From assembly GCA_044892525.1 (NCBI GenBank), contig CM097886.1, forward strand, positions 110,918,001-110,982,000: a stretch of 64,000 bases of DNA, in the 5' to 3' direction. The position numbers were made by a program, and so were the translations under genes. The DNA comes from Schmidtea polychroa. Lineage: Eukaryota. This document shows, piece by piece, positions 3,891-49,360 of this stretch; position 1 is the first letter of the stretch; each line of letters begins with the position of its first letter. A model generated the notes under the pieces. The model saw only the letters and a list, made by a program, of their open reading frames with translations. It was not told the DNA's origin and ran no database searches.

Positions 3891-4269
3891 CACCTAAATC
3901 CCAATCGGACAAAGAGAAAAGAGACAAAGGGGTGAAAAAGAGAAAAAACAGTAGAGTAGGGTAACATGTGAACCCGGGAACAAAGAACTATTACATAATT
4001 GATGATGTCACGAAGGAAATTACGCCATACTCCCGGAGAGGGGTATTTTTAATTTTTTTAAAATTTTTTAAATTACATAATAAAGAACTATTACACAATT
4101 AAGGCGCATTACGTAACAAAGGCATATTACAAAATAAAGACATATTACGTAATAAAGACATATGACTCATCGATTTAAACAAAGACATTACGTGATAAAG
4201 ACACATCATTAATTGGGGAAAATGGAATGTTTTAAATTAATTTGGAGCCTGATTGTCTGATATGATATT

Positions 4270-4531
4270 AGTAGTGAGGAATCTATGCACCCCAGCACCC
4301 CCACCCTCAAAAAAAACAGCGCTATTGACCCATATTTTCCACATTTATATGCTTTTTTACCCCATATTCTTCACTTTTTTTAACTTTTAAACTTTGTCCC
4401 CTATTGCCATTAACCCTTAATTTCTTCCCTTAAAAGTAAAAAAGTTCGGAATAGATGTATTTATAGATTAGTAATTCCGAGAAAAGGTAACGGGGTGCAT
4501 AGATTCCTCACTACTTGGTCTTAAGGATTTA
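4270..4531 (+). repeat. Left terminal inverted repeat of the Polinton
   Basis: Reverse complement of 19181-19444; by eye identical except an A8 vs A10 homopolymer. Confidence 0.96.
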
Positions 4532-4934
4532 ATGTTATAAGGATTTAATGTTATAAGAATATCAGATTACCTAATTCATAATGATCTAGGTCGCCTGATC
4601 ACCTTAAGGTTTTGAAAGTTTTAAAAATAAAAAATTTTATGAAAATAGTAAAACTGCTCTGAGGGGACAGTGGTATTTTTTTTTTTTTCACTGTCCCCTC
4701 AACAGTTTTTTTTTGATCCGGATCATTTTTTTTTTTTTTATTTATCAACCTCTTTCGTTTATCAAATCTCTTCCAATATACAAGCTGGCCAGACTCATAC
4801 ATCAGAATCAATCCGATAATAGCAGCACGCCTTATTATTCGCTTCTCGCTCACGAAGTCGATTTCAACGGCGTTTTAAGCGTGCTGCTCGAAAGTACAAA
4901 TGAATTCGAAAGCGAATCCGAAAGAGGTCCGAAA

Positions 4935-5024
4935 ACAACTGAGAAATAAATGTGCACATTACCGGGATCGATCCGGGGGTGTTCGAAAGACAGGTGGCGA
5001 TAATTACCGGTTCGCCACCATCAC
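4935..5024 (-). ncRNA. Putative tRNA-like / Pol III structured RNA (unit 3)
   Basis: Minus strand: A-box-like TGGCGAACCGG, D-arm-like GCGA/TCGC, 7-nt loop CTTTCGA on a 3-bp stem, T-arm-like CCGG-ATCGATC-CCGG, TTTT at ~4933-4936. No acceptor stem. Confidence 0.4.
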
Positions 5025-5206
5025 CCGTTTCAATATTTTTTTTTTCATATTTATGTTTAAAAAATAATTAATTTATAAAAAAATAAAATAAAATAAAATA
5101 AATAAAATAAAATATACAAGTACTTTATAAATATAAGATACCCACACTATTTTCAATATTATTTTCAAATTTTTAATATTATTTTATGTTGAAAAAAAAA
5201 CTAACC

Positions 5207-5503
5207 TCAGATGTGATTTGAACCACTATCCATTTGAACCACTGCGCCATCAAGGTTTGGATTTTTGTCATTTTTTAGACTATAAATAATCGATTCAAGT
5301 TCTTTAACTCTTTCCTGTAATTGTTTCATTTTCTTCAATCTTATATCAGCAACATCTACAGCCTTCATATAAAAATGTCGATACTTTTCATTATCTACCA
5401 TCAACTCTTTGATGTATTCTAATGGTTCTTCTTCTCTTCTTTTCATTCTCTTATGTTTAACTTCATTCAATTCATTTCTCATTCTTTCTTTTAACTCATC
5501 CAT
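5207..5503 (-). CDS. Small basic/coiled-coil orphan protein (98 aa) of the Polinton
   Basis: Intact ORF with the TAAAAATG start context shared with other element genes; charged helical heptad pattern. Confidence 0.65.
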   Translation of the reverse strand: MDELKERMRNELNEVKHKRMKRREEEPLEYIKELMVDNEKYRHFYMKAVDVADIRLKKMKQLQERVKELESIIYSLKNDKNPNLDGAVVQMDSGSNHI

Positions 5504-5674
5504 TTTTATAAATATTTTTTTATTGGATATATTAATTTTTGGTAGCTTAAGTTAAAACGTTTTTGATCTTAAATTTCCAAGAGTTGCCGTTGACCAATCA
5601 CCTTTAAAATTTGTACAAGTACTAAATCGAGTATGCTGATCAATATTTTGTTTAAAAAAAAATTTGAAAAGAAA

Positions 5675-5747
5675 TGACCGAAATGGGATTTGAACCCATT
5701 GGTATTGGCAATGCAGTCGAGTGCTATTACCACTAAGCTATTAGAGC
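5675..5747 (-). ncRNA. tRNA-Cys(GCA)-derived 73-nt tRNA-like RNA gene (unit 1)
   Basis: Invariant tRNA positions in register (T8, A14, G15, D-loop GG, T33, G34C35A36, G53-T-T-C-A-A, C61). Perfect T-stem ATGGG/CCCAT, acceptor 5/7 pairs, broken anticodon stem (2/5), oligo-T downstream. Confidence 0.75.
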
Positions 5748-5917
5748 TATACTCAATATAAAATAAGTTGTTAATGTGTGACTATTTATTGATGAAATTA
5801 ATAATTAATTATTCATTTTCTCGACAACTACCACTCAGATCCATCTGAAAATTTAAATATATACTAAAATCAGTACGCTGAATCAGATTCCGTTGAAAAA
5901 AAAATATCGAAAAAAAT

Positions 5918-5990
5918 TGACCAAAATCGAAAATTGAACCCGGACTCCCGGTGATAAAATTGAAGCCTATTCCCACTCCGCTATAATGGC
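5918..5990 (-). ncRNA. Second 73-nt tRNA-like RNA gene (unit 2), apparently paralogous to unit 1
   Basis: A-box TAGCGGAGTGG, B-box GGTTCAATT, ends GGTCA followed by T7. Shares ATAGC..AGTGG.AATAG, GGGTTCAA and TTT.GGTCA with unit 1; stems weak. Confidence 0.6.
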
Positions 5991-6046
5991 TTACATAATA
6001 TATTTAATTAATCCTATTGTGTGTGTGTAAATTTTAATATATAAAA

Positions 6047-7339
6047 ATGAATAATATAAATCTTAAAATTCAAGAAAAAAATAAATTAAATCTTGATTAT
6101 AATAAAGAATTTACTCATGAAATCAAGAAAAACGATGTACTTAAAATCTCCCCAACTTCAGGATCTATTGCAAACTTAAATCGTAGGGGTGATATAGTTT
6201 TTCAATCTCTTCAAACATCAAACCCTATAGATATTTGTAATGCCAAATTATATTATAAAATCGAATTAGAAATTGAAGCAAACAAAGATATAACCCTAGA
6301 AAATAATTTCTTTCCAAATTTATTCTCCAATATGAGATTAAAACTAGGATCATCAGAAATTGAAACTGTTTTACATCCGGGAGTATATTCTACAATGTTA
6401 AATTTTATTTTGACTGGTTGTGATTATAAAAATGAATATGGTGAATTAACAGGCTGGATTCCTGATGTTAATAAAGGAGATTTAGATAAAGATGGTTTAG
6501 ATATAAATTATGGTTACTATAAAAGAGCTGAACTTTATAAATCTAAAAAATTTGAAGGTTATTTTGAATTAAAACACTTGTTTGGATTCCTTCAAAACTA
6601 TAATCGTATACTTCATAATGTTTTTATAGAATTCATCTGTAATAGAGTAGAAGGTGATAAAAGATTGTTCTATGGAGCTGTAGATACAAAAGCTAAATTA
6701 AAATTATCAACACTTGAATTACATATACCTGAATGGACATTAAACCCACATTCTGAGATTAAACTCCTTGAAAGATTAAATTCCAACAAGTCTATAAATG
6801 TAAATTATTTAAATAGAATCTGTAGTGAATTTAGTATGACAGAGGGTTCAACATATTCTATAAAGGTAGCAAATTTAGCATACCGACCAAGATATATCTT
6901 GATTGGATTCAAAGAAACAGATTCATCTTTCCAAAAAAATAACAATCTATTTATTCAAAAGATTGGAGATGATAATTTAAAAACAATACAAATTCAATTA
7001 AATAGTTCTTATTATCCAATAAATAGAATGGAATTTAATATTGAAAATAATGAAAACATATTCCCATATCTAAATTATATTGAAACATGTTATGATTTCA
7101 AAGTTGAACCGCAATTAGGTTTAGAAGATTTCAAAAATTTATATTCTATATTTTGTATAAATGTTTCAGACCAAGATGATCGCCTAGCCATAAATAATGT
7201 TGATGTTACACTTCATGTAACAAAGGATTCTAATTTTAAAGCTAAAGTATATACATTAATATTAGAAGAAAAGAAAATAGAAATGAAATTATATAGTGGA
7301 AAGATTTCAATAATCGAAAATGTTAGGGGAGATTCTTGA
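6047..7339 (+). CDS. Major capsid protein (double jelly-roll, hexon-like), 430 aa
   Basis: Size, beta-rich composition and Polinton MCP-like motifs (SP...LN..G.I.F, NNFFPNLFS.MRL..G..EIE, PRYILIGF, FCINVS). Confidence 0.85.
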   Translation: MNNINLKIQEKNKLNLDYNKEFTHEIKKNDVLKISPTSGSIANLNRRGDIVFQSLQTSNPIDICNAKLYYKIELEIEANKDITLENNFFPNLFSNMRLKLGSSEIETVLHPGVYSTMLNFILTGCDYKNEYGELTGWIPDVNKGDLDKDGLDINYGYYKRAELYKSKKFEGYFELKHLFGFLQNYNRILHNVFIEFICNRVEGDKRLFYGAVDTKAKLKLSTLELHIPEWTLNPHSEIKLLERLNSNKSINVNYLNRICSEFSMTEGSTYSIKVANLAYRPRYILIGFKETDSSFQKNNNLFIQKIGDDNLKTIQIQLNSSYYPINRMEFNIENNENIFPYLNYIETCYDFKVEPQLGLEDFKNLYSIFCINVSDQDDRLAINNVDVTLHVTKDSNFKAKVYTLILEEKKIEMKLYSGKISIIENVRGDS

Positions 7340-7368
7340 TATAATCCCTGATATTTTAACATTTTAAA

Positions 7369-8769
7369 ATGTCTTTAAATAAATATTGGAGATGTGAAAC
7401 TTGTAATTGTCAAGTTACAAGACATCATAAAGCAAGCCATCTTAAAACTAAAAAACATACAGTAGGTGACCTAATTCCACGAGCTGGAGGCGATTTGCAA
7501 TCTTCAAAAACAACATCTTCAATATTAAAACCTTTTACTACAGAAAAATATCCAGGTGAAAGACATTTATTTAAACACAACTACACCGGACCAGGAACAA
7601 GATTAGATATTAGATTAGATGAAAATAATAATCCCAAACAAGGAGAAGAACCAATAAATAGAATTGATCAAGCAGCTTTAAAACATGACATTGCATACAA
7701 TTCAACAAATCTTAGAGATAGACATGTTGCAGATGTGAATTTAATACATGATTTAAATAGTATCCAAAATCCATCAACCCAAGAAAAGATTCAAAGAGCT
7801 CTAGTTAAATTAGCAATGAAAGGTAAGATTTTCATAGGCTTAGGACACAGTCCGATCACCATGGGTGCAAGACTTCCTAGGAAAGCAAAAGATGTTGCTT
7901 ATAAAAAGATTATCGAACAAGCAGAGATTGAAAGATCCCTCGAGAGTACAGCCAAGACTAGTTTACAAACCCCAACAGAATCAGAAATAAAATATGCAAA
8001 GGAATTACACCATGAATTTAGAAAAAATAAAAAATATTTAAAAGTTCAAGTACATGAAAAAGATCAAACATGGTCTGCAGATTTAGCCAAATCATCAGAC
8101 CCTGAAAAATATAAAATAATTTTAACTGTAATAGATTTATATACAAGATTTGCTTTTGCAAGATGTTTAGAAAATAAAACAGGATATTCTATTACAGAAG
8201 CATTTGAAAATATATTTGAAGAAAATCAAAGAATCCCAAAATATTTATGGTGTGATAAAGGAACAGAATTTTATAACAAAGTTTTTACAAAGTTTTTAAA
8301 TGAAAATGATATTAAATTATATTCAACAGAAAACGAAGGAAAAGCAGTCGTAGTTGAAAGATTAAATAGAACATTAAAAAATAAAATGTGGAAATATTTT
8401 ACTACTATTGGAAAACAAAAATGGAACAATGAATTGTTACAAAAGATTGTAAATGAATATAATAATGATGTACATAGTTCTATAAAATTAACACCTTTAA
8501 ATGCTTCCATGAAGCCTGAAACCATTAAAGTGGTAAATATTGAAAATGATGTTATTGAAAAACCAAAGTTTAAAATTGGTGACCGAGTAAGAATATTTAA
8601 ATATAAAAATAAATTTGAAAAAGGATTCACAGCAAAATGGACAAATGAAATTTTTATTATAAATAAAAAAAATTATACAACTCCAATAACATATAGCATC
8701 TTTGATTTAAATAATGAAAAAATATTAGGTAGATTTTATAATAATGAACTACAGAAAACAGATTTTTAA
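7369..8769 (+). CDS. int: ZnF-PLA2-retroviral-type integrase fusion protein, 466 aa
   Basis: N-terminal C2H2 finger; parvovirus-type PLA2 motifs YTGPG and KHDIAY; rve DDE triad (WSADL, WCDKGTEF, VERLNRTLK); C-terminal KFKIGDRVRI...W..EIF...Y...EL domain. Confidence 0.93.
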   Translation: MSLNKYWRCETCNCQVTRHHKASHLKTKKHTVGDLIPRAGGDLQSSKTTSSILKPFTTEKYPGERHLFKHNYTGPGTRLDIRLDENNNPKQGEEPINRIDQAALKHDIAYNSTNLRDRHVADVNLIHDLNSIQNPSTQEKIQRALVKLAMKGKIFIGLGHSPITMGARLPRKAKDVAYKKIIEQAEIERSLESTAKTSLQTPTESEIKYAKELHHEFRKNKKYLKVQVHEKDQTWSADLAKSSDPEKYKIILTVIDLYTRFAFARCLENKTGYSITEAFENIFEENQRIPKYLWCDKGTEFYNKVFTKFLNENDIKLYSTENEGKAVVVERLNRTLKNKMWKYFTTIGKQKWNNELLQKIVNEYNNDVHSSIKLTPLNASMKPETIKVVNIENDVIEKPKFKIGDRVRIFKYKNKFEKGFTAKWTNEIFIINKKNYTTPITYSIFDLNNEKILGRFYNNELQKTDF

Positions 8770-8780
8770 GTCGACAAGCC

Positions 8781-9586
8781 CTAAAACAAACTTTTCCATA
8801 TTTCAGCTTCTTCTCTATCCAAATAAATATAATTATATTTTTCTTTCCAATGATTATCAACAAACATATCAAACATATTCTTATCAGGTTCAACATTTGA
8901 AAATAAATCATTATAAATCATATTCTTATCACGGCGATCTAATTTAAAAAATATAAAACAATTGGAATTATTTCTTATTGAATTTTTATCTAAAGCATAA
9001 TATGTTTGAGATATATAAATAACATTACAATTATTATGTCGACCTCGTGTAAAGTAACTCTTTTGAATCTCTTGATTTTCATATTAACAACATCATCAAA
9101 TATAACTAGATTCTTTTTATCTTTAGGAAGTAAATCACAATGTAAAACATCTTCAGGTTTATTAGAGAATAAAACTTGAATTGCCTCCTGCCCTTCTTCA
9201 CAAATATAATCATTTTTATTACTAATATCTGATTCTAAAATCTTTTCCTTATACCAATCAACCATATCAAAAGGTTGAAAAACTTCTTCAGGACACCTAT
9301 GTTGATTTTTAAAAATATCAATTATTGCTTTTTTAGTTAATTTATTTTCAAATCCACATTTCAAAAGTTGTAATTCTGGTTGATTTATGGTTGTAGAATA
9401 AAAGATTAAATTATTATAATCTAAAAAATCATCTTCAAGTAACATTCTCAAAACAAGTACATTCTTTCCACATCCAGAAGAACCAACAATTAATAATCTA
9501 AAATTATCAGGAAATACTTTATTATTAAATTTACTCTTATGTCTATTTAAAATTGGTTTCCAAATTATTGGACTTCGTACATCCAT
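8781..9586 (-). CDS. A32/FtsK-like packaging ATPase with a 1-nt frameshift at ~9076-9079
   Basis: Walker A GSSGCGK and Walker B LVIFDD. Adding one A to ATGAAAATC restores NQEIQKSYFTRGRHNNCNVIYISQTYY..IRNNSNCFIFF to TAG at 8781-8783. Likely start ATG at 9586 (CAAAATG), not the TTG at 9625. Confidence 0.9.
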
Positions 9587-9601
9587 TTTGTTTATTATAA
9601 A

Positions 9602-10180
9602 ATGACAACTGAAGAATCTTTGCAAGAATTAATAAATTCAAATAAAAATAAATCAGTAGTAATTGATGGTAAAAAATATTTTATTGGAAAACATGTAAAA
9701 GAACAAGTTAGAGCGAAGATCCACGAAGCTAAAGAAGGTGGCATTCTTCCATTAGCTGCTTTAATACCTGCAATCATTGCTGGTTTATCAGGTGCTGCTG
9801 GAATAGCTGGAGGAATTGCAACTACAGTTCAAAAAGATAAAGAATCTCAAAAGACAGACCTAGAAAAAGAAAAACTACAAACTGAAATCGATTCAATGAA
9901 GAAGGTAGGGCAAGCTAAAGGGGGAGTGTCCGTTGGAAAGGGTCTCTATCTTAATCCATATGAGGGGAGTCGGCAAAAGTCTCAGGGCAAAGGTCTCTAT
10001 CTTGATCCTTATAAAGGTAGAGGTTTAAATGATTTTTTAAAAAATCAAATTTCTACATCTGAATCTTTATCTTCAAAAGATAAAGAAGATTTAAAAAAAA
10101 TATGTAAATCTTTAAAGAATGGATGCCTTTGTAAAACTAAAAATGGTAAAGGATTATACTTGAAGCCCTTCGAACTATGA
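9602..10180 (+). CDS. Adenovirus pX-like core / membrane-active precursor protein, 192 aa
   Basis: KEGG-ILPLAALIPAIIAGLSGAAGIAGGIA resembles the adenoviral pX C-terminus (GG-ILPLLIPLIAAAIG); three GKGLYLxP(Y/F) repeats. Confidence 0.65.
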   Translation: MTTEESLQELINSNKNKSVVIDGKKYFIGKHVKEQVRAKIHEAKEGGILPLAALIPAIIAGLSGAAGIAGGIATTVQKDKESQKTDLEKEKLQTEIDSMKKVGQAKGGVSVGKGLYLNPYEGSRQKSQGKGLYLDPYKGRGLNDFLKNQISTSESLSSKDKEDLKKICKSLKNGCLCKTKNGKGLYLKPFEL

Positions 10181-10202
10181 TACCATTTTTGATACCATTA
10201 AA

Positions 10203-11084
10203 ATGGTATATGAAGAAAGATTAGCACTTTTAAAAAAATTACAATCAGAACAAGATAAATATAATAAAAAAGATACAACTCAACATGCTGAATCTATAAT
10301 ATTAAATGAGGTAATAACACAACAACAGGGGCCAACAATTAAAGCTATAAAAGAGTTGGAAGATTTCAATGAGCAAGCAAAATTTAAAGAGTTAGAAGAT
10401 AAAAAACAAAAAATAAAAGAACTAGAGTGGCAGGATAAAGAAAAAGAATCCAGTAAAAACCATCCTGAAAGAAATCAAAGAAAACGCAGAAGAATTTCTA
10501 ATGTGGAAGAAGAAGAAATGTTTTTAAAAACAAAACCTCTTAAAGTTGATCCTAAAATTAGAGATGATTTACCTCCTTCAATTAGACCCACATTTAATAC
10601 TAATACTGAAGGATATCAAATAATAACAATTAATAAACAAAACTTTACTTTATATTCAAATTCAGAAAATAAATCACGTATTCATTCACAAAATGTTTAT
10701 AATAATGAATATTTAGACTTTGAATTTACAGATGATTTTTATAGATTACTTTGTGGATATTCTTCAGATGATGTTGAAGAAATTAAAAAATATTTAAATT
10801 TAATAAGATTAATAAGAGCTAGTTCTAAAGCAAAATATATTCAAGATTTAAAGAATTATTTAAATAAAAATGAAAAGGGTTATGTTGTTACAGAGGGAGA
10901 GGGATTAATTAGTGAAGGTGGTAAACCAAATCCCATCAATCTTTTTATTGAATTAAGAAAACTATTAGCTGCAAGGAAAGCAGGACATAATAATTTAGAT
11001 TCTGATATTTTAAAGATTTCTAAAGATTTGTTAAAACAAGGAATAATTTCAAAAGATAAATTTAATAAGTATACGAAGTTATAA
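10203..11084 (+). CDS. Conserved Polinton protein of unknown function, 293 aa
   Basis: Intact ORF with TAAAATG start. C-terminal GEGL...ELRKLLAARKAGHNN...I..ISKDLLKQGII matches a motif I recall in Polinton ORFs. Confidence 0.7.
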   Translation: MVYEERLALLKKLQSEQDKYNKKDTTQHAESIILNEVITQQQGPTIKAIKELEDFNEQAKFKELEDKKQKIKELEWQDKEKESSKNHPERNQRKRRRISNVEEEEMFLKTKPLKVDPKIRDDLPPSIRPTFNTNTEGYQIITINKQNFTLYSNSENKSRIHSQNVYNNEYLDFEFTDDFYRLLCGYSSDDVEEIKKYLNLIRLIRASSKAKYIQDLKNYLNKNEKGYVVTEGEGLISEGGKPNPINLFIELRKLLAARKAGHNNLDSDILKISKDLLKQGIISKDKFNKYTKL

Positions 11085-11106
11085 ATACGAAGTTTTAAAA
11101 TACAAA

Positions 11107-11511
11107 ATGACTCCTTCAATATTAGATTTTTTAAAAACATTTGGAATAAATGCAAAAACAAATTTTGATTTAAAAGATTATGCAAATTATTTAAATTTAA
11201 AAATTAAAATATTAATGAATGATGAATTATCAAGTCTGGAGAGTCCCCTGAATATAATAATCAATTATCAAAATTCAAATGAAAAAGGATCTCATTGGGT
11301 TTGTATATATAAGAAATCTATCTACTTTGATTCTTTTGGGATTAAACCTACTAAAGAAGTTGAAGATTATCTCTTGAGGGGTTCTCCGATTGATTCCCCA
11401 AATGGTTATACTTTTAACTCTTTACAAGTTCAACCTTTGAATACTAAAATATGTGGTATTTTAAGTTTATATGTTTTGTATAGATTGAAAGGGGCATACG
11501 CAGGATTTTGA
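11107..11511 (+). CDS. Adenain-like cysteine protease (maturation protease)
   Basis: GSHWV, YFDSFG, QVQ and CGILSLY give the His/Asp/Gln/Cys catalytic set. The C-terminus may be frameshifted at GGGG 11491-11494. Confidence 0.92.
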   Translation: MTPSILDFLKTFGINAKTNFDLKDYANYLNLKIKILMNDELSSLESPLNIIINYQNSNEKGSHWVCIYKKSIYFDSFGIKPTKEVEDYLLRGSPIDSPNGYTFNSLQVQPLNTKICGILSLYVLYRLKGAYAGF

Positions 11512-11605
11512 ATCTATAATTCAAGAAATTTATAATGATCTAGAATCTCTACTATAAGGATTTTTACTATAAGGATTTTTACTATATGAATTTACTACTA
11601 AAGAA

Positions 11606-12370
11606 ATGGAGCTTCACAACCCTCCGGAAGATAATTTTAAAAAAATGGTAAACATAATGTCAGATAAATATTCAAGAACTTTATCTATAAATTCAAAAGA
11701 ATCAGACTTTACTATAAACTTTCAAGATTCAATTAAATTAGATCAAAATTTAAATTATGAATTGGGGCTATTATGGTTTTGTGCTTATAATACTATTTTT
11801 AATATAACTAAAGATAATAATAAATTTACTATTCAAACTCGTGATGGGCATAAACCAGAAATTATAACAATAGAACCTGGGGCATATGAGATAAAAGATT
11901 TAAATGATATACTTTCTAAAAAAACAAATGAAGGTATTAAAATTAAAATGGATATACCAACTTCAAAATGTGTAATGACTTTGAAGAATATAAAAATTAG
12001 TTTTTTAGATAATTGTTTCTTTCACACAGTTTTAGGATTTAAACCTATGGATATAACAATAAAAGAAGATAAAATAATAACATCAGAACATATTATAAAA
12101 ATAATAAATACAAACACAATAAATATTCATTGCGATTGTATAACAGGTTCTTATAATAATGGTAAACAAACAAATGTTTTATATTCCTTTCCCTCAAACA
12201 CAGTTCCTATGGGATATAAAATAGTTGAAAGAATGAATCCTCCAAATTATTTACCTTTATGTAGAAAATTTATAATGGATATTAATTTTAAAATTCTTAA
12301 TCAAGAAGGAGAATTGATTGATTTTAATGGAGAAGAGATTTCAATGTATTTACATTTGAAACAGGTTTGA
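11606..12370 (+). CDS. Minor capsid protein (penton, single jelly-roll), 254 aa
   Basis: Polinton penton motifs YNTIFNIT..NNKF, G.YEI.DL, VLGF, INIHCD.I.GSY.NG...VLYSF, P.YLPL, Q.G.LIDFNGE.I...LHL. Confidence 0.9.
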   Translation: MELHNPPEDNFKKMVNIMSDKYSRTLSINSKESDFTINFQDSIKLDQNLNYELGLLWFCAYNTIFNITKDNNKFTIQTRDGHKPEIITIEPGAYEIKDLNDILSKKTNEGIKIKMDIPTSKCVMTLKNIKISFLDNCFFHTVLGFKPMDITIKEDKIITSEHIIKIINTNTINIHCDCITGSYNNGKQTNVLYSFPSNTVPMGYKIVERMNPPNYLPLCRKFIMDINFKILNQEGELIDFNGEEISMYLHLKQV

Positions 12371-12394
12371 AGATTCATTTTAAATTATTAATAA

Positions 12395-13405
12395 ATGAGT
12401 TCTTATATTCCATGTAATAGAGGTGGTGGAACAATAAAAACAGGGTTTAATACAGAAGAAATATTAACTTTAACAGAAAATAAATATATTAATGAAATAG
12501 GTGATTCAATGAAGGGTGATTTAATTTTAAATGGACACAAGATAAAAGAATTATCTTTTCCAACTGATGAAGCTGATGCAGTTAATAAGAAATATGTAGA
12601 TGGTGTTAAAAAATATACTGATTTAACAACAACAAGAATTGAAAGTTCATTAACAACAAAAATTGATTCAATGGAATCAAAGCTTAATAATATCGAACAA
12701 CGATTTAATGATAAATTTGACAAGTTACAAAGTCTGTTAACTGAACAAGTTGTAAAGTTAAATACTGCTATATTAAATTCTAAAGATAAACAAATTATGA
12801 ATACTAAATTTAATACAATATATAAAATAATAAATGAGATGATTACATCATTTAATAAAAGAATTTCAAATTTAGAGTCTCATGGAACACACATTAACAC
12901 CACACATAGTATTAGAAAAAGAGCTGCTGAATTAGAACAGAATAAAACATTATTACCCCATACATATAAACATTTTATAGAACCAAGTTTAATAACAACA
13001 AACAGTAAAGAATGGGGTGTTTTTATGGTTGTAAAAATTATTGATCCTTATTTCTTTTTGTTTGATGATGATAATGAAAGAATGAAATGGTTTGTGAAAT
13101 GTGATTATAATAGTATGCTTGAAAAGGGTGATGTTATAATGACTAGTTATGATTTACCACACGGAGATTGGTATGTTAATACTCATTCACATGGACTACA
13201 TAAAGTTAAAAGTAAGAATATTCATTTTTCTAGTTCACTTGTACAATATATAGATTTAATATTTTATGAAAAAAAGGTTGATGTTGATGAAGTTCGTAAA
13301 GCATTGAGAGAATTGTATAAAGATATCCTCTCAACAAGAGTTTCTTTTGATATCCGAGTATTGGTGCCAGATGGTGCTCAGAAGAATAAAGTCTTATTTT
13401 TTTAA
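12395..13405 (+). CDS. Putative fiber / receptor-binding protein, 336 aa
   Basis: GDSMKGDLILNGHKIKEL..P....DAVNKKYVD tail-fiber-type motif, then a long coiled coil and a beta-rich C-terminus; lies directly after the penton gene. Confidence 0.55.
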   Translation: MSSYIPCNRGGGTIKTGFNTEEILTLTENKYINEIGDSMKGDLILNGHKIKELSFPTDEADAVNKKYVDGVKKYTDLTTTRIESSLTTKIDSMESKLNNIEQRFNDKFDKLQSLLTEQVVKLNTAILNSKDKQIMNTKFNTIYKIINEMITSFNKRISNLESHGTHINTTHSIRKRAAELEQNKTLLPHTYKHFIEPSLITTNSKEWGVFMVVKIIDPYFFLFDDDNERMKWFVKCDYNSMLEKGDVIMTSYDLPHGDWYVNTHSHGLHKVKSKNIHFSSSLVQYIDLIFYEKKVDVDEVRKALRELYKDILSTRVSFDIRVLVPDGAQKNKVLFF

Positions 13406-13413
13406 TTATTAAA

Positions 13414-14025
13414 ATGGAAGAAGTAAGAGAAGAAAAAATTTACCCAGAATTGAGATCATCAGGATATTATTCCGAAGGTCACAAAGGTTCCAAGGCCTCG
13501 GCTCCCACAGAACTTGAAATTATGAGAGTAAAAGAATTTAAATCAGAAACCTTACATATAAAAGATTTATTAAAGCATTATAAAAAAATTAAAAATAGAT
13601 GGAATAAAGGGAATACAGTTTTAAAAGTTATAGGTTATTCTTTAGGATTTGCATCTGCAATATTAACAGTTATTTTACCCATAACTTTACCAGTTGTTAC
13701 TCTTGCACCTGTAATACTTGGAAGTATTTCTGTGGCTGATGGTTTCTTAACTGAAATAGTTTCATTATCTTATACTTCTAAAAAGAAAAGTTTATATAGA
13801 GAAGTTTGTTTATCAATAGAATTAGGAATCTCTAAATTATTTTTATTTCAATTAAAAGCTTTGGAAGATGGAATCCTGACAGACGAAGAAATAATGAAAT
13901 CAAATCAAATAATACAAGATATAAAGAATGAGGTTATAAGATTAAAAAGGGAGGGCATGGTGGCTAATGTTATAAGTAATAAAAAAACATCTCGAGAAAA
14001 ATGGTTAAAGAATTCTTACTTATAA
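13414..14025 (+). CDS. Polinton membrane protein (two hydrophobic helices), 203 aa
   Basis: IYPEL...SAP N-terminus, hydrophobic VIGYSLGFASAILTVILPITLPVVTLAPVILGSISV, and an LEDG.L..EE motif; intact ORF. Confidence 0.7.
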   Translation: MEEVREEKIYPELRSSGYYSEGHKGSKASAPTELEIMRVKEFKSETLHIKDLLKHYKKIKNRWNKGNTVLKVIGYSLGFASAILTVILPITLPVVTLAPVILGSISVADGFLTEIVSLSYTSKKKSLYREVCLSIELGISKLFLFQLKALEDGILTDEEIMKSNQIIQDIKNEVIRLKREGMVANVISNKKTSREKWLKNSYL

Positions 14026-14103
14026 AATGGGTGTATTTTTAAAAAAGTAGATCAGGTTGCTATAGTTGCTTAAATTAATTGTCGACATTTTATTATTAAA
14101 AAA

Positions 14104-14658
14104 TTAAATATCGTTGAAAGCCAACCTATGAATCATTAATTTATGATATTTAAATTCTTTATCACTTAGACCTTTTATATATTCAGGATCAGTATTAAAA
14201 TATTTAAGTTCTAAACATATAGGATTAAAAACTTGAGAATATAAAGGTTTCTCGATTTCTCTCTGGGGATAAATAATTTCAACATTATAAATATCAAGAT
14301 CAGTAATCTTTGTATCATATAACTTCTTCAACTTTTCTAGATTTTTTATTATAGGGATTAAATTATTTCCAATAGGTAGAGTTGTCTTTAAATCACTTAG
14401 TATGAATCTCTTATCATCATAATTTGATAATGATACTTTTTGAGATTCTATCAAGTGAATATCATGGTTTTCACTTTTAAGTTGATGTATTTCATCAATT
14501 TTATCTTTATGATTTGGGTTTAATGTATCTATATAATCTTGATGAGAAAGATTCTTTGCAACCACTCTCTGTATTCCTTTACATCTGTTATCCTTTAAAT
14601 TAGTAATATTTTTTATAATTTCAAAAATGTTATTTTCTTGATTTTTAGTTTCCATCAT
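14104..14658 (-). CDS. Stand-alone paralog of the pPolB C-terminal domain, 184 aa
   Basis: Aligns without gaps to the PolB tail from KGIQ through HKLM (about 60% identity by hand over ~150 aa). Has its own TAAAATG start and no catalytic motifs. Confidence 0.85.
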   Translation of the reverse strand: MMETKNQENNIFEIIKNITNLKDNRCKGIQRVVAKNLSHQDYIDTLNPNHKDKIDEIHQLKSENHDIHLIESQKVSLSNYDDKRFILSDLKTTLPIGNNLIPIIKNLEKLKKLYDTKITDLDIYNVEIIYPQREIEKPLYSQVFNPICLELKYFNTDPEYIKGLSDKEFKYHKLMIHRLAFNDI

Positions 14659-14682
14659 TTTATAGTGTTAAAATTCTAATTC

Positions 14683-17600
14683 TTAGAGCAGTCGTAATTG
14701 ATTTATAATTATTTCTGCAGTAATGCTTTTTAACATTAATTTATGTGATTTAAAGTCTTCTGGTGTTAGTCCTTGGATATATTCAGGATCAGTATTAAAA
14801 TATTTAAGTTCTATAGGTTTTATATTTTGAACTTGATTATATAAAGGTTTAGGAATTAATATTTCAGGATATTGGATTTCTACTTTAGCAAGTTGAAGGT
14901 CTGTAATCTCTAGGTTATAAATTTCATTTATTTTATCAAGATTTTTTATTATAGGGATTAAATCATTTCCAATAGGTAATGTTGTCTTCAAGTCAGAAAG
15001 TATAAATCTTTTATCATCATAATTTGTTATAGCAATCTTGTTACACTCTTCAAGATATATATTATGTTTCTCTGATTTAAGATGATGGGTTTTAGCAATT
15101 TTATTTTTATAATTTATATTTAATGAATCTTTATACTCTTGATGTGTGAAGGTTTTTGACACTGATTTTTGAATTCCTTTACTTTTATTTTCTTTATAGC
15201 TTTTCGGGTTTTCAGGGAATGAAGGATATTCAAATGTTCGATCTACTTCAACAGATCCTTCTATTATAAATTTTATTGTATGCTCTTTCATAATTGGTTT
15301 GTCTTTCATTTCAAGAGAATATTGTTTAGGTCTAATAAACACTCCTCCAGTTATTGGAGTATTTGGTTTTTCATCTTTAAAAGTAAACAACTCTCCAGAA
15401 TTGTTTATTAATTTATTTAAGGTTGGATCTTCACGTATTTCTTTTTTGAAATCTTTGCTATATCCTTTTAAAAACATACTATCAGTGTCCATTGCATGCA
15501 TGGATATTCGATCTCCAAAATGTGGTACTAGAACATCATAGTAAGCTTCATACATTTGAAGCTTTGAAAGTTCTAAAATTGAAAACCCTATAAAGATTGG
15601 TTTATTATAAGTTTTTACAGAGTTTTTAATCTCTATGGCTATAAGGTTACTAGAGAATATCTCGGCATTTTTAAATGTGGGCTTTCCAATTATCCAGTTG
15701 TACCTATTAAGGTCTTTGGATGTATTGGTCAAAAGCTCTACACGTGTGTACTTGTCTATATTCTCCATGGTCTTTCCAAAGACCGCATTGTTCAGGAGTT
15801 TGTAAATCATATCAAGAAATGCATTTCCAGCTCTCTTTGCTGCATTTCTTTTCAAAATATTTCCCTCTATGAATTTTTTCATAAAAGGGGCTTGTCGAAA
15901 TTTAATAATGGAATGTACTTTTTTTAAAACCATTCCATGGGAGAGATAAAACTGAAGGAGTCTATAATGACAAAGGTAATCAGTTTTATCCGTCTGATCG
16001 CATAAAAGTTTTATACAGGGCGATCTATCCTGAGCCATCTGCCAGTCTGAAAGTTCTTCAGTCGAGATCTTTCTTCTTACTGGAGCAAATGGAAAGAATC
16101 TTGTCCTGGATTTTATTTCATTGGGATATTCAAGATCACATTCTATGACATATCCATATTGTGAATTCTTTGGTGTTTTTAGAATTTCTTGTATTAATTC
16201 CTCAGTGGGCTCTTCCCAGGTGAACTTGCCAATTGGAAGGTATTGAGTCATTACTCCTCCATATAAAGCTGTTGCATCTATATACATTATTTCAGAAGGA
16301 TTAGAAAGACCTTCCAGTATTTCCTCACGATCTTCTGGGTTTGTTATTTCTACATATAGAGCATCAGTATCTTTGAAAAATTTAGGATAAAGAGTTGTAA
16401 AATTATTAGCATTTATTTCTCTATTCCCTTGTACTGAAGAAATACCTCCTCTAATATTATGTTTATATACATTAAACATATCAAGGTCAACTAATAATTC
16501 AATGGTTTTATTTCTTTCTGCTATGTCTTCATCGGTCCATATGCTATATAATAATATATCCCAAGCTAGAGAGGGAGCGGTTATATAATTATAAGGTTTT
16601 AATTCAAAAGCTTTTGAAAATGTCTCGAAGTAATCAGCTAAGATATAAACATCTAAGGAAAGATACATGTCAGTATATTCTCCAAGGTTTCTACAGTTGA
16701 AAAGATTCCACATTTTAAGTGCACGGGAATATTCCTGATCAGAAATCCCTGATTGTGTTAAAACAGAAAAGAAATCTTCTTGAGCTGGGAGTAATTCATT
16801 ATATTTTTCAAAGGAGTCTATATAATCATATGGATAGATTCCTTTTGCTAGACAGGTATTATATTCCTCTAATGGAATATTGTTTTTTAATAACACATGT
16901 TCTTTTGTATATTTAAAATCCTCAGGGTTCATAGTTTTTGCAATGCCATCCAAAGACATCCCTAAGAAATTTAAGGAGTCCAAAAACTTAAAGCATCCAT
17001 ATTGAATGCTTTTATATTTTTCTTTTGTAAGTCCAATAACCTTGAAAGAGTTTTTAGCATTTGCAGCTAGATGTTTAATGAACAGGTGAATATCATAGCC
17101 AAAAAGATTGTGAAATATAAATGGTATGTGTGTTGGTTTTTTACAATTGAGATTACAATTTTTATGGGCCGCTCCTCTGTAATTATTTTCTATTTTAAAA
17201 TGATCATGGTCAGGAACCTTAAGTTCACTAGTTGACTCCTCATCCTCGAACTCTTGTTTGCACATCCAGCAGTGTGTTGCATTTTTATATTCTTCCTCTT
17301 GTTCTTCTGAAAAATTCATAGGAAAGTTGGATTTTAATATTATATATAATTCATGTTCTAGATTATTTAAAGTTTCAACAAAATGGTCTAGAGTCTCTTT
17401 GTCAGAAGTTCCCCTAAATGAATATTCTCTAGATTCTACAAGTTCTGGATAATTACTTTTGAAAAACATTTTATAAGCAGAGGGTAATTGTTTTGTTAGT
17501 TTTACAGTATTAGTTTTTGTTCGTCTTAGTTTTACATTTATAGCTTCAAAATCACAATAAACCACTCCCAATGCTTCTAATAGATTGGAATAGTTTTTAA

Positions 17601-19068
17601 ACCTCATATTAGCATTTTTCTTGTGTGGCATTTTTATTAAAGCAGGTTGATTCTTACAACAGAGTCTCTCATGTTTAATAGCAGCAAGTTTTGAAGTTGA
17701 ATGATATAAACATCTTTTACAACATATGCCTCCACGAATGAGTGTGTTTCCTTTCATAAAACTTTGAAAATTCTTTATTAAGATATAATGAAGTTTTTTA
17801 TCTAACATAGTGCCTCCGGACGCAGTGCTTTCTGCTTCTGGTTCTAATGAAATGCCTTCTTCTGCTTCCATAACCTTCGGGTGAATACTTTGAACCTCTT
17901 CACCATATTCTTCTCCATCAAACTCTTCGTCTGCTTTACCTTCTTCTAATATTAAAAGATCTACTTCTCTCTTTTCATCTGAGATTTCCATATTAGAAAT
18001 GTAAATAGGAATAATTTGTTTATAATTTTTATATTTTCTAGTTTTTGTAATTTTGGTTGGAATGAATTGATAAATATTAATTTTAAGATTATTTAATTTT
18101 TCAAATGCTAGAACATCTTCAATTTTCATTGGGTGGGAAAAATCTTTTGGATATATTAATTCAGATTCATATTCTTCATATTTTTGAACTCTCTGTGGGT
18201 TAGTTGCTTGAGGATGTAAGTGTGCAAGTATTGACCATTGAAAACATTTATTATCTTTATTCTGTACATTTATAACATGGTTGGAGGTGAATGGTGTATG
18301 AATAAAAGATTTAGGATTTGGTGGTGCACCTCTCCAGTATTCAATCTCTATGTTTTGAAAAGAGTGGAATCTTAAATTAGATTCTCCTAGTTCTTGTTCC
18401 ACCTGTTCTTGTTTTTCTTCCAATTCTTTAGCTATATCATTAACAAGTTTATTTCCTGCTTTTGTAGAAAATAAATATTTATATGAGGTTTCAATTTTTA
18501 CATCTAGAGGCATTGCGATCGAATCATCTCCTCTCCAGTATTTTGCATTTCCTGTAAATTTAACTTTTATAACATTAAATCTTGATCTACCAAATTTTTT
18601 TATAGCATCATCCATTGATGATATTATTTTTTTTTTATTTTCTCTTATATATTGCATGATTGATCTGGGTCCTCGTTTTACTTCTGCAATTACATCGGTG
18701 TGATTGAAGTTGTCCCAATTAAACTCTAGTTTTTCAGCTTTTTCAGTCATTGAGTTTGAATCAGAATCTTTTGCTTCAAGACCACAATCTTCTATGTGTC
18801 TTAAGTAAAAAGATTTTATCTTCATATTTTTTCCACATGCTGAACATTCGAATATTTCTCTGTTTTTAGGAACTCCAATACAATTTTTAAAATATTTCTT
18901 ATAACCTGAAAATAAATATCTATCCTTACATTTAGTACAGATTTTGGAATTAGTGTCATCTAGTGTGTTAGCTTTTATTAAATGGTCTTTTGATTTTTTA
19001 TGAGATGTTAAAGCAGTTTTATTTTTAAAATATTTTTCACAAATTTCACAATTGAAAATAGCTTCCAT
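14683..19068 (-). CDS. polB: Protein-primed family B DNA polymerase (N-terminal ZnF, terminal protein region, vOTU-like region, Endo VII finger), 1461 aa
   Basis: Exo motifs YCDFE, FHNLFGYD, YLSLDV; Pol motifs DATALYG, KLLNNAVFGK, MDTDS; EndoVII-like CWMC..DHDH..YRGAAH..CN; NKCF...HY Cys/His pair. Confidence 0.96.
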   Translation of the reverse strand: MEAIFNCEICEKYFKNKTALTSHKKSKDHLIKANTLDDTNSKICTKCKDRYLFSGYKKYFKNCIGVPKNREIFECSACGKNMKIKSFYLRHIEDCGLEAKDSDSNSMTEKAEKLEFNWDNFNHTDVIAEVKRGPRSIMQYIRENKKKIISSMDDAIKKFGRSRFNVIKVKFTGNAKYWRGDDSIAMPLDVKIETSYKYLFSTKAGNKLVNDIAKELEEKQEQVEQELGESNLRFHSFQNIEIEYWRGAPPNPKSFIHTPFTSNHVINVQNKDNKCFQWSILAHLHPQATNPQRVQKYEEYESELIYPKDFSHPMKIEDVLAFEKLNNLKINIYQFIPTKITKTRKYKNYKQIIPIYISNMEISDEKREVDLLILEEGKADEEFDGEEYGEEVQSIHPKVMEAEEGISLEPEAESTASGGTMLDKKLHYILIKNFQSFMKGNTLIRGGICCKRCLYHSTSKLAAIKHERLCCKNQPALIKMPHKKNANMRFKNYSNLLEALGVVYCDFEAINVKLRRTKTNTVKLTKQLPSAYKMFFKSNYPELVESREYSFRGTSDKETLDHFVETLNNLEHELYIILKSNFPMNFSEEQEEEYKNATHCWMCKQEFEDEESTSELKVPDHDHFKIENNYRGAAHKNCNLNCKKPTHIPFIFHNLFGYDIHLFIKHLAANAKNSFKVIGLTKEKYKSIQYGCFKFLDSLNFLGMSLDGIAKTMNPEDFKYTKEHVLLKNNIPLEEYNTCLAKGIYPYDYIDSFEKYNELLPAQEDFFSVLTQSGISDQEYSRALKMWNLFNCRNLGEYTDMYLSLDVYILADYFETFSKAFELKPYNYITAPSLAWDILLYSIWTDEDIAERNKTIELLVDLDMFNVYKHNIRGGISSVQGNREINANNFTTLYPKFFKDTDALYVEITNPEDREEILEGLSNPSEIMYIDATALYGGVMTQYLPIGKFTWEEPTEELIQEILKTPKNSQYGYVIECDLEYPNEIKSRTRFFPFAPVRRKISTEELSDWQMAQDRSPCIKLLCDQTDKTDYLCHYRLLQFYLSHGMVLKKVHSIIKFRQAPFMKKFIEGNILKRNAAKRAGNAFLDMIYKLLNNAVFGKTMENIDKYTRVELLTNTSKDLNRYNWIIGKPTFKNAEIFSSNLIAIEIKNSVKTYNKPIFIGFSILELSKLQMYEAYYDVLVPHFGDRISMHAMDTDSMFLKGYSKDFKKEIREDPTLNKLINNSGELFTFKDEKPNTPITGGVFIRPKQYSLEMKDKPIMKEHTIKFIIEGSVEVDRTFEYPSFPENPKSYKENKSKGIQKSVSKTFTHQEYKDSLNINYKNKIAKTHHLKSEKHNIYLEECNKIAITNYDDKRFILSDLKTTLPIGNDLIPIIKNLDKINEIYNLEITDLQLAKVEIQYPEILIPKPLYNQVQNIKPIELKYFNTDPEYIQGLTPEDFKSHKLMLKSITAEIIINQLRLL

Positions 19069-19180
19069 TTTTAAAAGAATTTTTTGGTTGGATACGATGT
19101 TTTGGTTTTGATATTAATTTTTATTAATTTTTAAATCCTTATAACGTTAAATCCTTAAATCCTTAAATCCTTTAAATCCT

Positions 19181-19444
19181 TAAATCCTTAAGACCAAGTA
19201 GTGAGGAATCTATGCACCCCGTTACCTTTTCTCGGAATTACTAATCTATAAATACATCTATTCCGAACTTTTTTACTTTTAAGGGAAGAAATTAAGGGTT
19301 AATGGCAATAGGGGACAAAGTTTAAAAGTTAAAAAAAGTGAAGAATATGGGGTAAAAAAGCATATAAATGTGGAAAATATGGGTCAATAGCGCTGTTTTT
19401 TTTTTGAGGGTGGGGGTGCTGGGGTGCATAGATTCCTCACTACT
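19181..19444 (-). repeat. Right terminal inverted repeat of the Polinton
   Basis: Reverse complement of 4270-4531; followed by TSD GATATT. Confidence 0.96.
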
Positions 19445-20292
19445 GATATTTTAAGTCCAATAAATATTACAAGTAAAGTACTTCAGAAAGAAAATTTTAA
19501 TGTTTCGGAAGCTACAACAGTACTTTCTAATAGTATTGACTATTTAAAAAAGTACAGAACAGATGATAAGTTTAAGTTATTCAAGAGGCCAAAGAAATTG
19601 CACTACAATTAGAAATTTAGCCAGAGTTTGAGAAAATAAGAAATCGTCGCAGAAGAAAGCAATTCGAAGTAATCAATGATGCAGCACAAAATTTTAAGAA
19701 TAATTTTTTAAAAAAATCCTTGATCAAGCAACTGTGTCATCAAATGATAGGTTTACGTTGATTCGGGAGCACAATAAAAATTTTNNNNNNNNNNNNNNNN
19801 NNNNNNNNNNNNNNNNNNNNNNNNNNNNNNNNNNNNNNNNNNNNNNNNNNNNNNNNNNNNNNNNNNNNNNNNNNNNNNNNNNNNNNNNNNNNNNNNNNNN
19901 NNNNNNNNNNNNNNNNNNNNNNNNNNNNNNNNNNNNNNNNNNNACTGCGGGAACCGTATAAATCCGCACGGCCGTTTGCATGCAGTAATGAGACACAAAA
20001 TATGCAAAAGCGCCCCGCAGCGAATCTTGCTACACTCTTAAAATATATCGGAATATATATGCTACGTTAATTATTAGCATCATCTTTGGCCAACGTTTTC
20101 ATAGCGCTAAGAGGTGAAAAGAGTTTTTCAAAATTAAAACTAATTAGAACCTATATACGCTCTACGATGAGACAAGAACGATTAGATGCTCTGGCCACTT
20201 TGCCAATTGAACTTGAAATTGCCAAAAATTTAAATGAAGAGGAATTAATTGATAGGTTTGCTACCATAAAGGCTCGAAAGATTAGTTTTTAA
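19445..20292 (+). pseudogene. hAT (ZMYM1-like) transposase remnant interrupted by the Polinton and by an N gap
   Basis: The frame LIV*YDI (left flank, ~4249-4269) continues as DILSPINITSKVLQ (right flank). The C-terminal dimerization segment GEKSFSKLKLIRTYIRSTMRQERL is at 20086-20292. Confidence 0.8.
19785..19943. other. Assembly gap (others at 53785-53913 and 61945-62095)
   Basis: Runs of N. Confidence 0.99.

Positions 20293-49328: not shown

Positions 49329-49360
<32 letters not shown>

What the first reader, a model, noticed from the sequence alone, without database searches (positions are those of the whole stretch)
4650..5990. Candidate Pol III small-RNA cassette (VA-RNA-like system) in the left arm of the endogenous virus
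Seen: the 1.5 kb between the left TIR and the capsid gene holds two 73-nt tRNA-like units, a third weaker one on the same (minus) strand, each followed by oligo-T, plus several GC-rich 10-13-bp stems in an otherwise very AT-rich element. Established: adenoviruses, relatives of Polintons, make Pol III VA RNAs from internal A/B-box promoters that antagonise dsRNA sensing and RNAi. Inference: this element carries an analogous tRNA-derived non-coding module, acting as an RNAi/innate-immune decoy, a small-RNA source, or a TFIIIC chromatin barrier. I am not aware of this being described for Polintons, but could not search.
Basis: partly seen in the sequence, partly recalled or inferred. Interest (0 to 1): 0.88.

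Follow-up and report, generated by a model that had tools for sequence, protein, structure and literature searches.

The report
Structured RNA gene in virus-like transposon
A virus-like jumping gene with about two thousand copies in an animal genome carries four worn-down tRNA-type units near one end; two are shared with the host's ribosomal-DNA spacer and were likely picked up from it, and the outermost is predicted to drive a conserved, tightly folded RNA of about 375 bases that would likely act as a decoy against the host's RNA-silencing defences.

Summary
Confirmed and extended. The window holds an intact Polinton (4270-19444; 2,059 exact capsid-motif matches genome-wide). Its arm has four minus-strand A-box/B-box units (U1-U4; shuffles average 0.04), not three; none folds as a tRNA. 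Shared variants occupy 7% of its columns against 28% of capsid fourfold sites and mostly keep pairing. Many copies carry U3+U4 at both ends; 7 of 20 divergent relatives lack all units. No solo SINE-like copy was seen. Best reading: a Pol III non-coding RNA laid out like herpesvirus TMERs and likely working as a VA-like decoy; it is not a VA RNA. Transcription and function are not shown.

The parts
4270..19444 (.). Intact Polinton/Maverick, 15,175 bp, 6-bp target-site duplication GATATT (4264-4269, 19445-19450)
   Evidence: TIRs; TSD; capsid, integrase, pPolB
4270..4540 (.). Left terminal inverted repeat (about 270 bp here; about 1 kb including U3+U4 in many sisters)
   Evidence: L183/L184
4650..5026 (-). 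Predicted ~375-nt Pol III RNA read from U4 through the internal T4
   Evidence: fold z -9.3 against -4.9 on the other strand; lowest z of 72 tile-strand folds; conservation
4964..5026 (-). U4 head: A box 5017-5007, B box 4974-4964 (GGATCGA type), 8-bp GC hairpin around the A box
   Evidence: no shared change in the A box or at the five key B-box positions in 95 copies
4932..4935 (-). Internal T4; would give a ~95-nt short form and must be read through for the long form
   Evidence: a T-run of 4 or more near this offset in 95 of 96 distinct copies
4821..4888 (-). 12-bp GC stem with variable loop; one pair occurs as G-C, G-U and A-U
   Evidence: helix 8
4759..4819 (-). 25-bp hairpin with 9 G-U pairs, no A-C opposition, 7-nt loop; pre-miRNA-like
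   Evidence: RNA minus strand z -4.2, RNA plus +1.5, DNA +0.2 and +1.8, helix 11
4650..4709 (-). 3' hairpin with variable A-rich loop and a G-C to A-U compensatory change, followed by T4 (4653-4650), T4 and T6
   Evidence: both sides changed in 17 of 48
5192..5256 (-). U3: A/B-box unit with T9; 19 nt shorter than most sisters; tandemly duplicated in several copies
5207..5503 (-). Small ORF, 98 aa, no Pfam family above cut-off; 73-75 aa homologues end before U3; the tail over U3 is not conserved
5539..6035 (-). U1-U2 block shared with the host 45S rDNA intergenic spacer; sits between AAAATT repeats; empty site in other Polintons
5675..5747 (-). U2: tRNA-derived unit, perfect A and B boxes, D and T arms kept, anticodon and acceptor stems broken
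5918..5990 (-). U1: paralogue of U2 and U3, degenerate B box, internal T4 runs, T7 end
6047..7339 (+). Double jelly-roll major capsid gene
   Evidence: PF21738 E 1e-26

Best explanation
This Polinton family carries four tRNA-type A/B-box units in its arm, and the outermost, U4, likely serves as an RNA polymerase III promoter for a conserved, tightly folded RNA of about 375 nt that would likely work as a double-stranded-RNA-mimicking decoy against the host's RNA-silencing machinery. Shown: the boxes, T-runs, strand-specific fold, conservation and copy number. Inferred: TFIIIC binds U4; Pol III starts near 5026 and either stops at the T4 (about 95 nt) or reads through to the T-runs behind the 3' hairpin; the wobble-rich helices of 25 bp or less bind Dicer or other dsRNA-binding proteins. 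U1-U3 are accessory short units that kept boxes and terminators but lost the cloverleaf. They likely act through TFIIIC/Pol III occupancy of the DNA (open chromatin or a barrier at the element end), and U1-U2 were likely captured recently from the host rDNA spacer. My odds by step: selected RNA structure 0.8; Pol III-driven 0.7; decoy rather than miRNA source about 0.55 given those; recent spacer-to-Polinton transfer 0.8.
For: 4 box pairs against 0.041 expected. Fold -137.4 kcal/mol, z -9.3; other strand z -4.9; lowest z of 72 tile-strand folds over most of the element. The 25-bp hairpin folds only as minus-strand RNA, not as DNA; 9 G-U and no A-C, p 0.004 post hoc. In 95 copies, variant pair types shared by 3 or more copies keep pairing in 12 of 15, rare ones in 12 of 47 (Fisher p 4e-4); U4 A box has no shared change; the adjacent spacer has 50 of 168 columns with shared changes. 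In 51 copies: 27 of 380 columns against 29 of 104 capsid fourfold sites (p 8e-8). U3+U4+stems also sit in right arms with no ORF upstream on that strand. U4 motif lies upstream of 52 of 65 capsid motifs. A T4 between a tRNA-like head and hairpins, with read-through, is described for TMERs (PMC3141230, passages); wobble-rich helices stacked below about 33 bp mark the VA-I decoy (PMC6599070, passages). Capture.
Against: No transcript, Pol III occupancy or binding partner is shown. The conserved T4 is an efficient terminator for human Pol III in vitro (PMC3141230, passage). Only one well-supported two-sided compensatory change; the pair- and type-counting controls are not exceeded (383 and 376 of 500 shuffles); the structure was taken from this copy, and copies are related, so variant counts are not independent events. 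Two inner helices, one loop-closing pair and the T-A helix over the T4 are not conserved. Another tile, inside pPolB, reaches z -5.8. 7 of 20 more divergent elements lack all units, so the module is not essential. None of 38 metagenome relatives shows tRNA genes or the strict box pattern beside the capsid, though most contigs are short. U1/U2 resemble the Polinton-only U3 more than the spacer's own U0, so their deeper origin is open.
Confidence: 0.45

Rival explanations
1. The same Pol III RNA is mainly a precursor: it is cut to release a viral microRNA from the 25-bp hairpin (TMER- or BLV-like).
For: tRNA-type head, T4, then hairpins, as in TMERs. The 3' arm positions 4783-4777 carry no shared substitution. 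A distant relative (L082, capsid 50%) has a hairpin scoring 48.6 bits against Rfam mir-754, followed by a T-run.
Against: The hairpin is about 27 bp and sits inside a multibranch loop, short for Drosha (recalled about 35 bp); there is no cloverleaf for tRNase Z; conservation covers the whole fold; no Rfam miRNA match. L082 has no A/B boxes before its hairpin.
Confidence: 0.2
2. The units work only as DNA: TFIIIC/Pol III sites forming a chromatin barrier at the element ends, with the stems as DNA-level replication or packaging signals.
For: U1-U3 keep boxes and T-runs while ends and interiors vary; U1+U2 have 1 of 146 columns with shared changes against 19 of 341 in their flanks (p 0.011); about 240-nt spacing; the same units lie in the rDNA spacer. 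This probably is what U1-U3 do.
Against: It does not explain a G-U-rich hairpin that folds only as minus-strand RNA and not as DNA, nor pair-keeping variants.
Confidence: 0.15
3. Neutral baggage: captured host tRNA-like DNA and an old SINE-like insert, homogenised because it lies in or near the terminal repeat.
For: U1-U2 match the rDNA spacer and are dispensable; several intact-looking relatives have no units.
Against: The spacer in the same module varies like synonymous sites while the RNA region does not; shared variants keep pairing; no solo copy among the first 100 U4 sites.
Confidence: 0.12
4. The fold is the structured 3' UTR of a Pol II mRNA of the small ORF.
For: The ORF lies upstream on the same strand and is a real accessory gene.
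Against: The RNA region is kept where the ORF is deleted (ORF in 7, RNA region in 19 of 20 capsid-picked arms) and in right arms without it.
Confidence: 0.08

Closest known systems
TMERs (tRNA-miRNA-encoded RNAs) of murine gammaherpesvirus 68
   Same: Cluster of degenerate viral tRNA-like units with type-2 Pol III boxes; tRNA-like head, a leaky terminator, then hairpins (PMC8223928, PMC3141230, passages).
   Different: Integrating Polinton, not a herpesvirus; no cloverleaf in U4; predicted RNA about 375 nt against about 200 nt; only one of four units has a structured tail; no miRNA shown.
Adenovirus VA RNA I/II
   Same: Internal B box within the transcribed RNA; wobble-rich helices below the dsRNA-sensor threshold (PMC6599070, passages); related virus lineage (recalled).
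   Different: No Rfam match; more than twice the length (VA about 160 nt, recalled); GGGU/ACCC pairs at the 5' end, not as a central tetrastem; PKR antagonism untested and PKR is thought to be vertebrate-only (recalled).
Bovine leukaemia virus Pol III miRNA cluster
   Same: Integrated virus using internal type-2 promoters for hairpin RNAs (PMC12498455, start of abstract in the search listing).
   Different: Retrovirus; short single-hairpin transcripts (recalled) against one long multibranch RNA.
tRNA-derived SINEs and BC1-type RNAs (recalled)
   Same: tRNA-type head, unique body, A-rich 3' region, T-run end.
   Different: No solo dispersed copy among 100 U4 sites; no poly(A) end with own target-site duplication; moves only as part of the Polinton.
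Polintons/adintoviruses
   Same: Terminal repeats, 6-bp target duplication, pPolB, integrase, capsid, PLA2-like domain.
   Different: No VA-like or Pol III RNA is mentioned in PMC8502044 (term search of main text; one tRNA mention, in a figure legend on MELD viruses with other replicases).

Membership tests
Polinton/Maverick | Terminal inverted repeats and 6-bp target-site duplication | tested here: met
Polinton/Maverick | pPolB, retroviral-type integrase, double jelly-roll capsid | tested here: met
   PF03175, PF00665, PF21738 above cut-off; ATPase and protease only as sub-threshold hints
Type-2 Pol III gene | A box and B box at tRNA spacing | tested here: met
   U1, U2, U4 here and U3 in sisters, 43-44 nt; U1 B box has 2 mismatches
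Type-2 Pol III gene | T-run terminator of 4 or more | tested here: met
   U1 also has internal T4 runs
Type-2 Pol III gene | Transcribed by Pol III, 5'-triphosphate RNA | not testable with these tools
   no raw RNA reads available
Functional tRNA gene | Cloverleaf with acceptor and anticodon stems | tested here: not met
   ARAGORN 0; only U2 scores 32.4 bits, with broken stems
Adenovirus VA RNA | Match to the VA family model | tested here: not met
   no hit up to E 10 or E 5
Adenovirus VA RNA | Apical stem, central domain with GGGU/ACCC tetrastem, terminal stem | tested here: not met
   different multibranch layout; GGGU/ACCC pair only at the 5' end (against PMC6599070)
Adenovirus VA RNA | Antagonises PKR, Dicer or Exportin-5 | not testable with these tools
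   needs biochemistry
TMER-type RNA | tRNA-like 5' structure | tested here: not met
   U4 has the boxes and a short T-arm but folds as a hairpin, z -0.5
TMER-type RNA | Hairpins downstream of a leaky terminator in the same unit | tested here: met
   T4 at 4935-4932, hairpins at 4759-4819 and 4650-4709; leakiness itself untested
TMER-type RNA | Yields mature miRNAs | not testable with these tools
   no small-RNA reads
Host SINE | Dispersed solo copies outside the element | tested here: not met
   0 of the first 100 U4 sites; non-Polinton U2 copies examined lie in rDNA and a tandem array
SRP (7SL) RNA derivative | Sequence similarity to host 7SL | tested here: not met
   best blastn E 0.16

The most novel reading that the evidence does not exclude
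Polintons have their own Pol III non-coding RNA genes, the counterpart of adenoviral VA RNAs and herpesviral TMERs: a ~375-nt structured RNA that blunts host RNA silencing and helped this family reach about 2,000 copies, backed by tRNA-like barrier units taken from the host rDNA spacer; some annotated lineage-specific host miRNAs (mir-754 type) would be Polinton-encoded.
Probability: 0.35. Interest if true: 0.9.

Novelty: new variant of a known kind. Interest (0 to 1): 0.7.

Why it matters
Polintons are read almost only through their proteins. A selected, RNA-specific fold behind a tRNA-type promoter in a young family of about 2,000 copies offers a direct test of how such an element escapes small-RNA silencing, and of whether VA-type RNAs arose repeatedly among adenovirus relatives. 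The shared block shows DNA exchange between rDNA spacers and an endogenous virus, and points to an unexplained cluster of tRNA-like units in the host spacer. Natural copies with and without each unit exist in one genome, so the comparison needs no engineering.

Tried and rejected
RNA evidence: no RNA holder listed. Four runs guessed to be RNA (contigs only, at most 3 samples, 2 studies) were laid on 4540-7400. All four have contigs on 4636-4923 and their summed depth is highest there; U1/U2 have little or no cover. The tool says contig depth cannot rank parts, no DNA run was laid beside them, the gap at 5034-5120 is a skipped repeat, and no listed piece bridges the T4 by 31 letters on both sides, so none of this is counted as evidence. 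Lack of T4 over 282 nt is not exceptional: four longer stretches on that strand. tRNA parent not assignable: U2 matches host Cys and Lys about equally (61%, 62%); only three host isotypes compared. No likeness to host 7SL. No relative in viral contigs by capsid or U4 motif. 38 metagenome relatives: no tRNA; 20 of them scanned by Rfam gave one hit, mir-754 in L082; the looser box scan of four of them gave a few hits in L097 and L103 that I did not pursue; GC-rich windows in L085 and L096 are coding. mir-754 and the L082 hairpin were not found in G000, but neither search had a positive control. Hairpin-arm seed counts inside the element (0-4 per strand) had no control and were not used. The end-to-end register printed was misaligned and not used. 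Literature: nine searches; those pairing polinton with RNA polymerase III (6 papers), tRNA-like/non-coding RNA, planarian, pol III/microRNA/hairpin/TFIIIC and intergenic spacer showed no report of such RNAs by title or start of abstract; subscription journals, repeat databases and supplements were not seen. A BC200-poxvirus search gave nothing usable.

Full report
The element. The window holds an intact Polinton at 4270-19444 with terminal repeats of about 270 bp and a GATATT target duplication. Pfam finds the capsid (6047-7339), an integrase with a PLA2-like domain and pPolB. All 98 scored capsid matches in the genome are 99-100% identical with open frames, and a capsid 22-mer occurs 2,059 times. 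The family is young and large. The host is an animal by its Metazoa SRP genes; it was not identified further.

The observation. A scan for an A box followed by a B box finds four units, all on the minus strand of the arm and none elsewhere in the 64 kb: U1 5990-5918, U2 5747-5675, U3 5256-5192 and U4 from about 5026. Dinucleotide shuffles of the arm give 0.041 on average and never 3 in 1,000 (motifs recalled and chosen after seeing the units). None is a tRNA gene: ARAGORN finds none and only U2 passes the Rfam cut-off, with broken stems. U3 is full length in most sisters; this copy lacks 19 nt. A 98-aa ORF lies between U2 and U3. It has 73-75 aa homologues that end before U3, one in an element without units, and its tail over U3 varies from copy to copy, so U3 is not kept as coding sequence. 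Where the ORF is deleted the units stand about 240 nt apart.

Distribution among sisters. By blastn, the region downstream of U4 is present in 30 of 30 arms picked by arm likeness, 19 of 20 picked by capsid and 12 of 20 picked with a distant capsid query; U1 in 30, 20 and 2; U2 in 30, 17 and 2. Seven of the last 20 have no unit anywhere in about 19 kb around the capsid. In the first 17.7 Mb of contig C1, 52 of 65 capsid motifs have the U4 motif upstream and 30 of 65 the U2 motif. The U4 22-mer occurs 2,792 times, more than the capsid, because many elements carry U3, U4 and the stems at both ends. Of the first 100 U4 sites, 52 lie left of a capsid motif and 18 in right arms. The other 30 were fetched in 28 loci: 24 show further Polinton sequence within 2 kb, 4 hold a 0.8-1.2 kb arm block, and none is a solo unit. 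It is not a dispersed SINE.

U1-U2 are shared with host rDNA. The U2 22-mer occurs 3,107 times, more than its density on C1 predicts. A U2-U1 junction motif occurs 1,085 times; the 100 listed sites are mostly at about 13-kb spacing on unplaced contigs and chromosome ends. Two such contigs were fetched and hold 18S, 5.8S and 28S genes. The block 5539-6035 lies in their spacer, antisense to the rRNA, with U2 repeated two or three times, at 97-98% identity. Three points favour recent transfer from spacer to Polinton. Polintons without the block show an empty site with one AAAATT, where carriers have it on both sides. The spacer has a further unit, U0, one period upstream, outside the block. A 1,245-bp tandem array carries U2 with the spacer's downstream flank at 86% identity, so that linkage is older than the 2-3% split from the Polinton copy. 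Against a simple story, U1-U3 resemble each other (scores 54-59) more than U0 (29-33), so an older exchange in either direction is possible. Within 65 Polinton copies, U1+U2 have 1 of 146 columns with a change shared by three or more copies, their flanks 19 of 341.

The part under structural selection. The GC stems lie downstream of U4 on the same strand. Bases 5027-4648 fold at -137.4 kcal/mol, z -9.3; the other strand gives z -4.9. It is the lowest of 72 tile-strand folds across most of the element; the next, inside pPolB, is -5.8 (12 shuffles each, tile set on the candidate). The fold has a 5' hairpin around the A box, a multibranch core closed by the B box, and a 3' hairpin before T4, T4 and T6. 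The 25-bp hairpin at 4759-4819 has 9 G-U pairs and no A-C opposition; it folds as minus-strand RNA (z -4.2) but not as plus-strand RNA (+1.5) or as DNA (+0.2, +1.8). In 95 copies, variant pair types shared by three or more copies keep pairing in 12 of 15 cases, rare ones in 12 of 47 (p 4e-4); the A box and the five key B-box positions have no shared change; the neighbouring spacer has shared changes at 50 of 168 columns. In 51 copies holding both regions, 27 of 380 columns vary in this way against 29 of 104 capsid fourfold sites and 13 of 366 second positions. Limits: only one well-supported two-sided change (G-C to A-U, 17 of 48), the pair-counting controls are not exceeded, the inner helices are not conserved, and the copies are related.

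Mechanism. I infer that TFIIIC binds U4 and Pol III starts near 5026. A T4 at 4935-4932 is present in 95 of 96 distinct copies and would give a 95-nt RNA; the conserved fold beyond it needs read-through to about 4650. For human Pol III, T4 terminates well in vitro, yet a gammaherpesvirus TMER with a T4 before its second hairpin still yields that miRNA (PMC3141230, passages). Conservation of the whole multi-helix fold, with wobble-rich stems of 25 bp or less, fits a decoy better than a single miRNA precursor; wobbles and a stack below about 33 bp are features of VA-I (PMC6599070, passages). In one animal, Polintons are silenced by nuclear piRNAs at the chromatin level (PMC8532177, passages), which shows the kind of pressure such an RNA, or TFIIIC-bound barrier units, could answer; whether this applies to the present host is not known. 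U1-U3 most likely act at the DNA level. No transcript was shown: the RNA-run data were not usable as evidence (see Tried and rejected).

Comparison and novelty. It is laid out like a TMER (PMC8223928, passages) and may work like VA RNA, but fails the membership tests for VA RNA, tRNA, SINE and 7SL. Paper searches (listings only) and a term search of the adintovirus paper (PMC8502044) found no report of Pol III RNAs in Polintons; supplements and subscription journals were not seen. Earlier notes of this scan describe the same cassette on two other pieces of this genome and Pol III-type hairpins in Polintons of two other genomes; they are leads, not support. A distant metagenome relative carries a hairpin scoring 48.6 bits (cut-off 84, E 9e-7) against mir-754, a family described from a planarian (PMC3854530, passage).

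Verdict. Real, larger than reported and partly reinterpreted: a new variant of viral Pol III non-coding RNA systems, with good sequence evidence for a selected RNA structure and no evidence yet on expression or function. Interest 0.7.

Noticed in passing
L216:5487-6454 (rDNA spacer, G000:C115): The host 45S rDNA spacer holds its own row of tRNA-like A/B-box units at about 240-nt spacing, antisense to the rRNA and about 3 kb upstream of 18S, including one (U0) not found in the Polinton arms compared.
   Followed up: partly
L219-L228 (G000:C1:145,776-168,672): A 1,245-bp tandem array carries a diverged U2 with rDNA-spacer flank (86% identity) joined to a short-period repeat.
   Followed up: partly
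L082:5436-5515 (-): A metagenome Polinton-like contig (capsid 50%) has a long hairpin (z -8.7) matching Rfam mir-754 at 48.6 bits, followed by a T-run; mir-754 loci may be Polinton-borne.
   Followed up: partly
L156-L188: Many sisters have ~1-kb terminal repeats containing U3+U4 beside a pPolB gene only about 70% identical in DNA to the window's: the family is mosaic, with swapped polymerases and different outer repeats.
   Followed up: partly
window 7369-8769: PLA2-like domain and integrase lie in one ORF.
   Followed up: no
window 14104-14658: ORF that repeats the C-terminal part of pPolB (75% DNA identity over 300 nt, 600 nt apart).
   Followed up: no
window 4270-4293 and 4492-4516: The first 24 bp of the terminal repeat recur inverted near its inner end, so each terminal repeat is itself bounded by an inverted repeat.
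   Followed up: no
window 15668-16047 (-): A tile inside pPolB folds with z -5.8 (12 shuffles).
   Followed up: partly
L031, L054, L193, L231: Host Pol III genes lie in long tandem arrays: tRNA-Lys (424-bp period), tRNA-Arg (278), tRNA-Cys (281; 993 motif matches), 7SL (593).
   Followed up: no
window 24793-25511 and 48786-49439: Long inverted repeats about 23.5 kb apart, possibly the ends of another large element.
   Followed up: no
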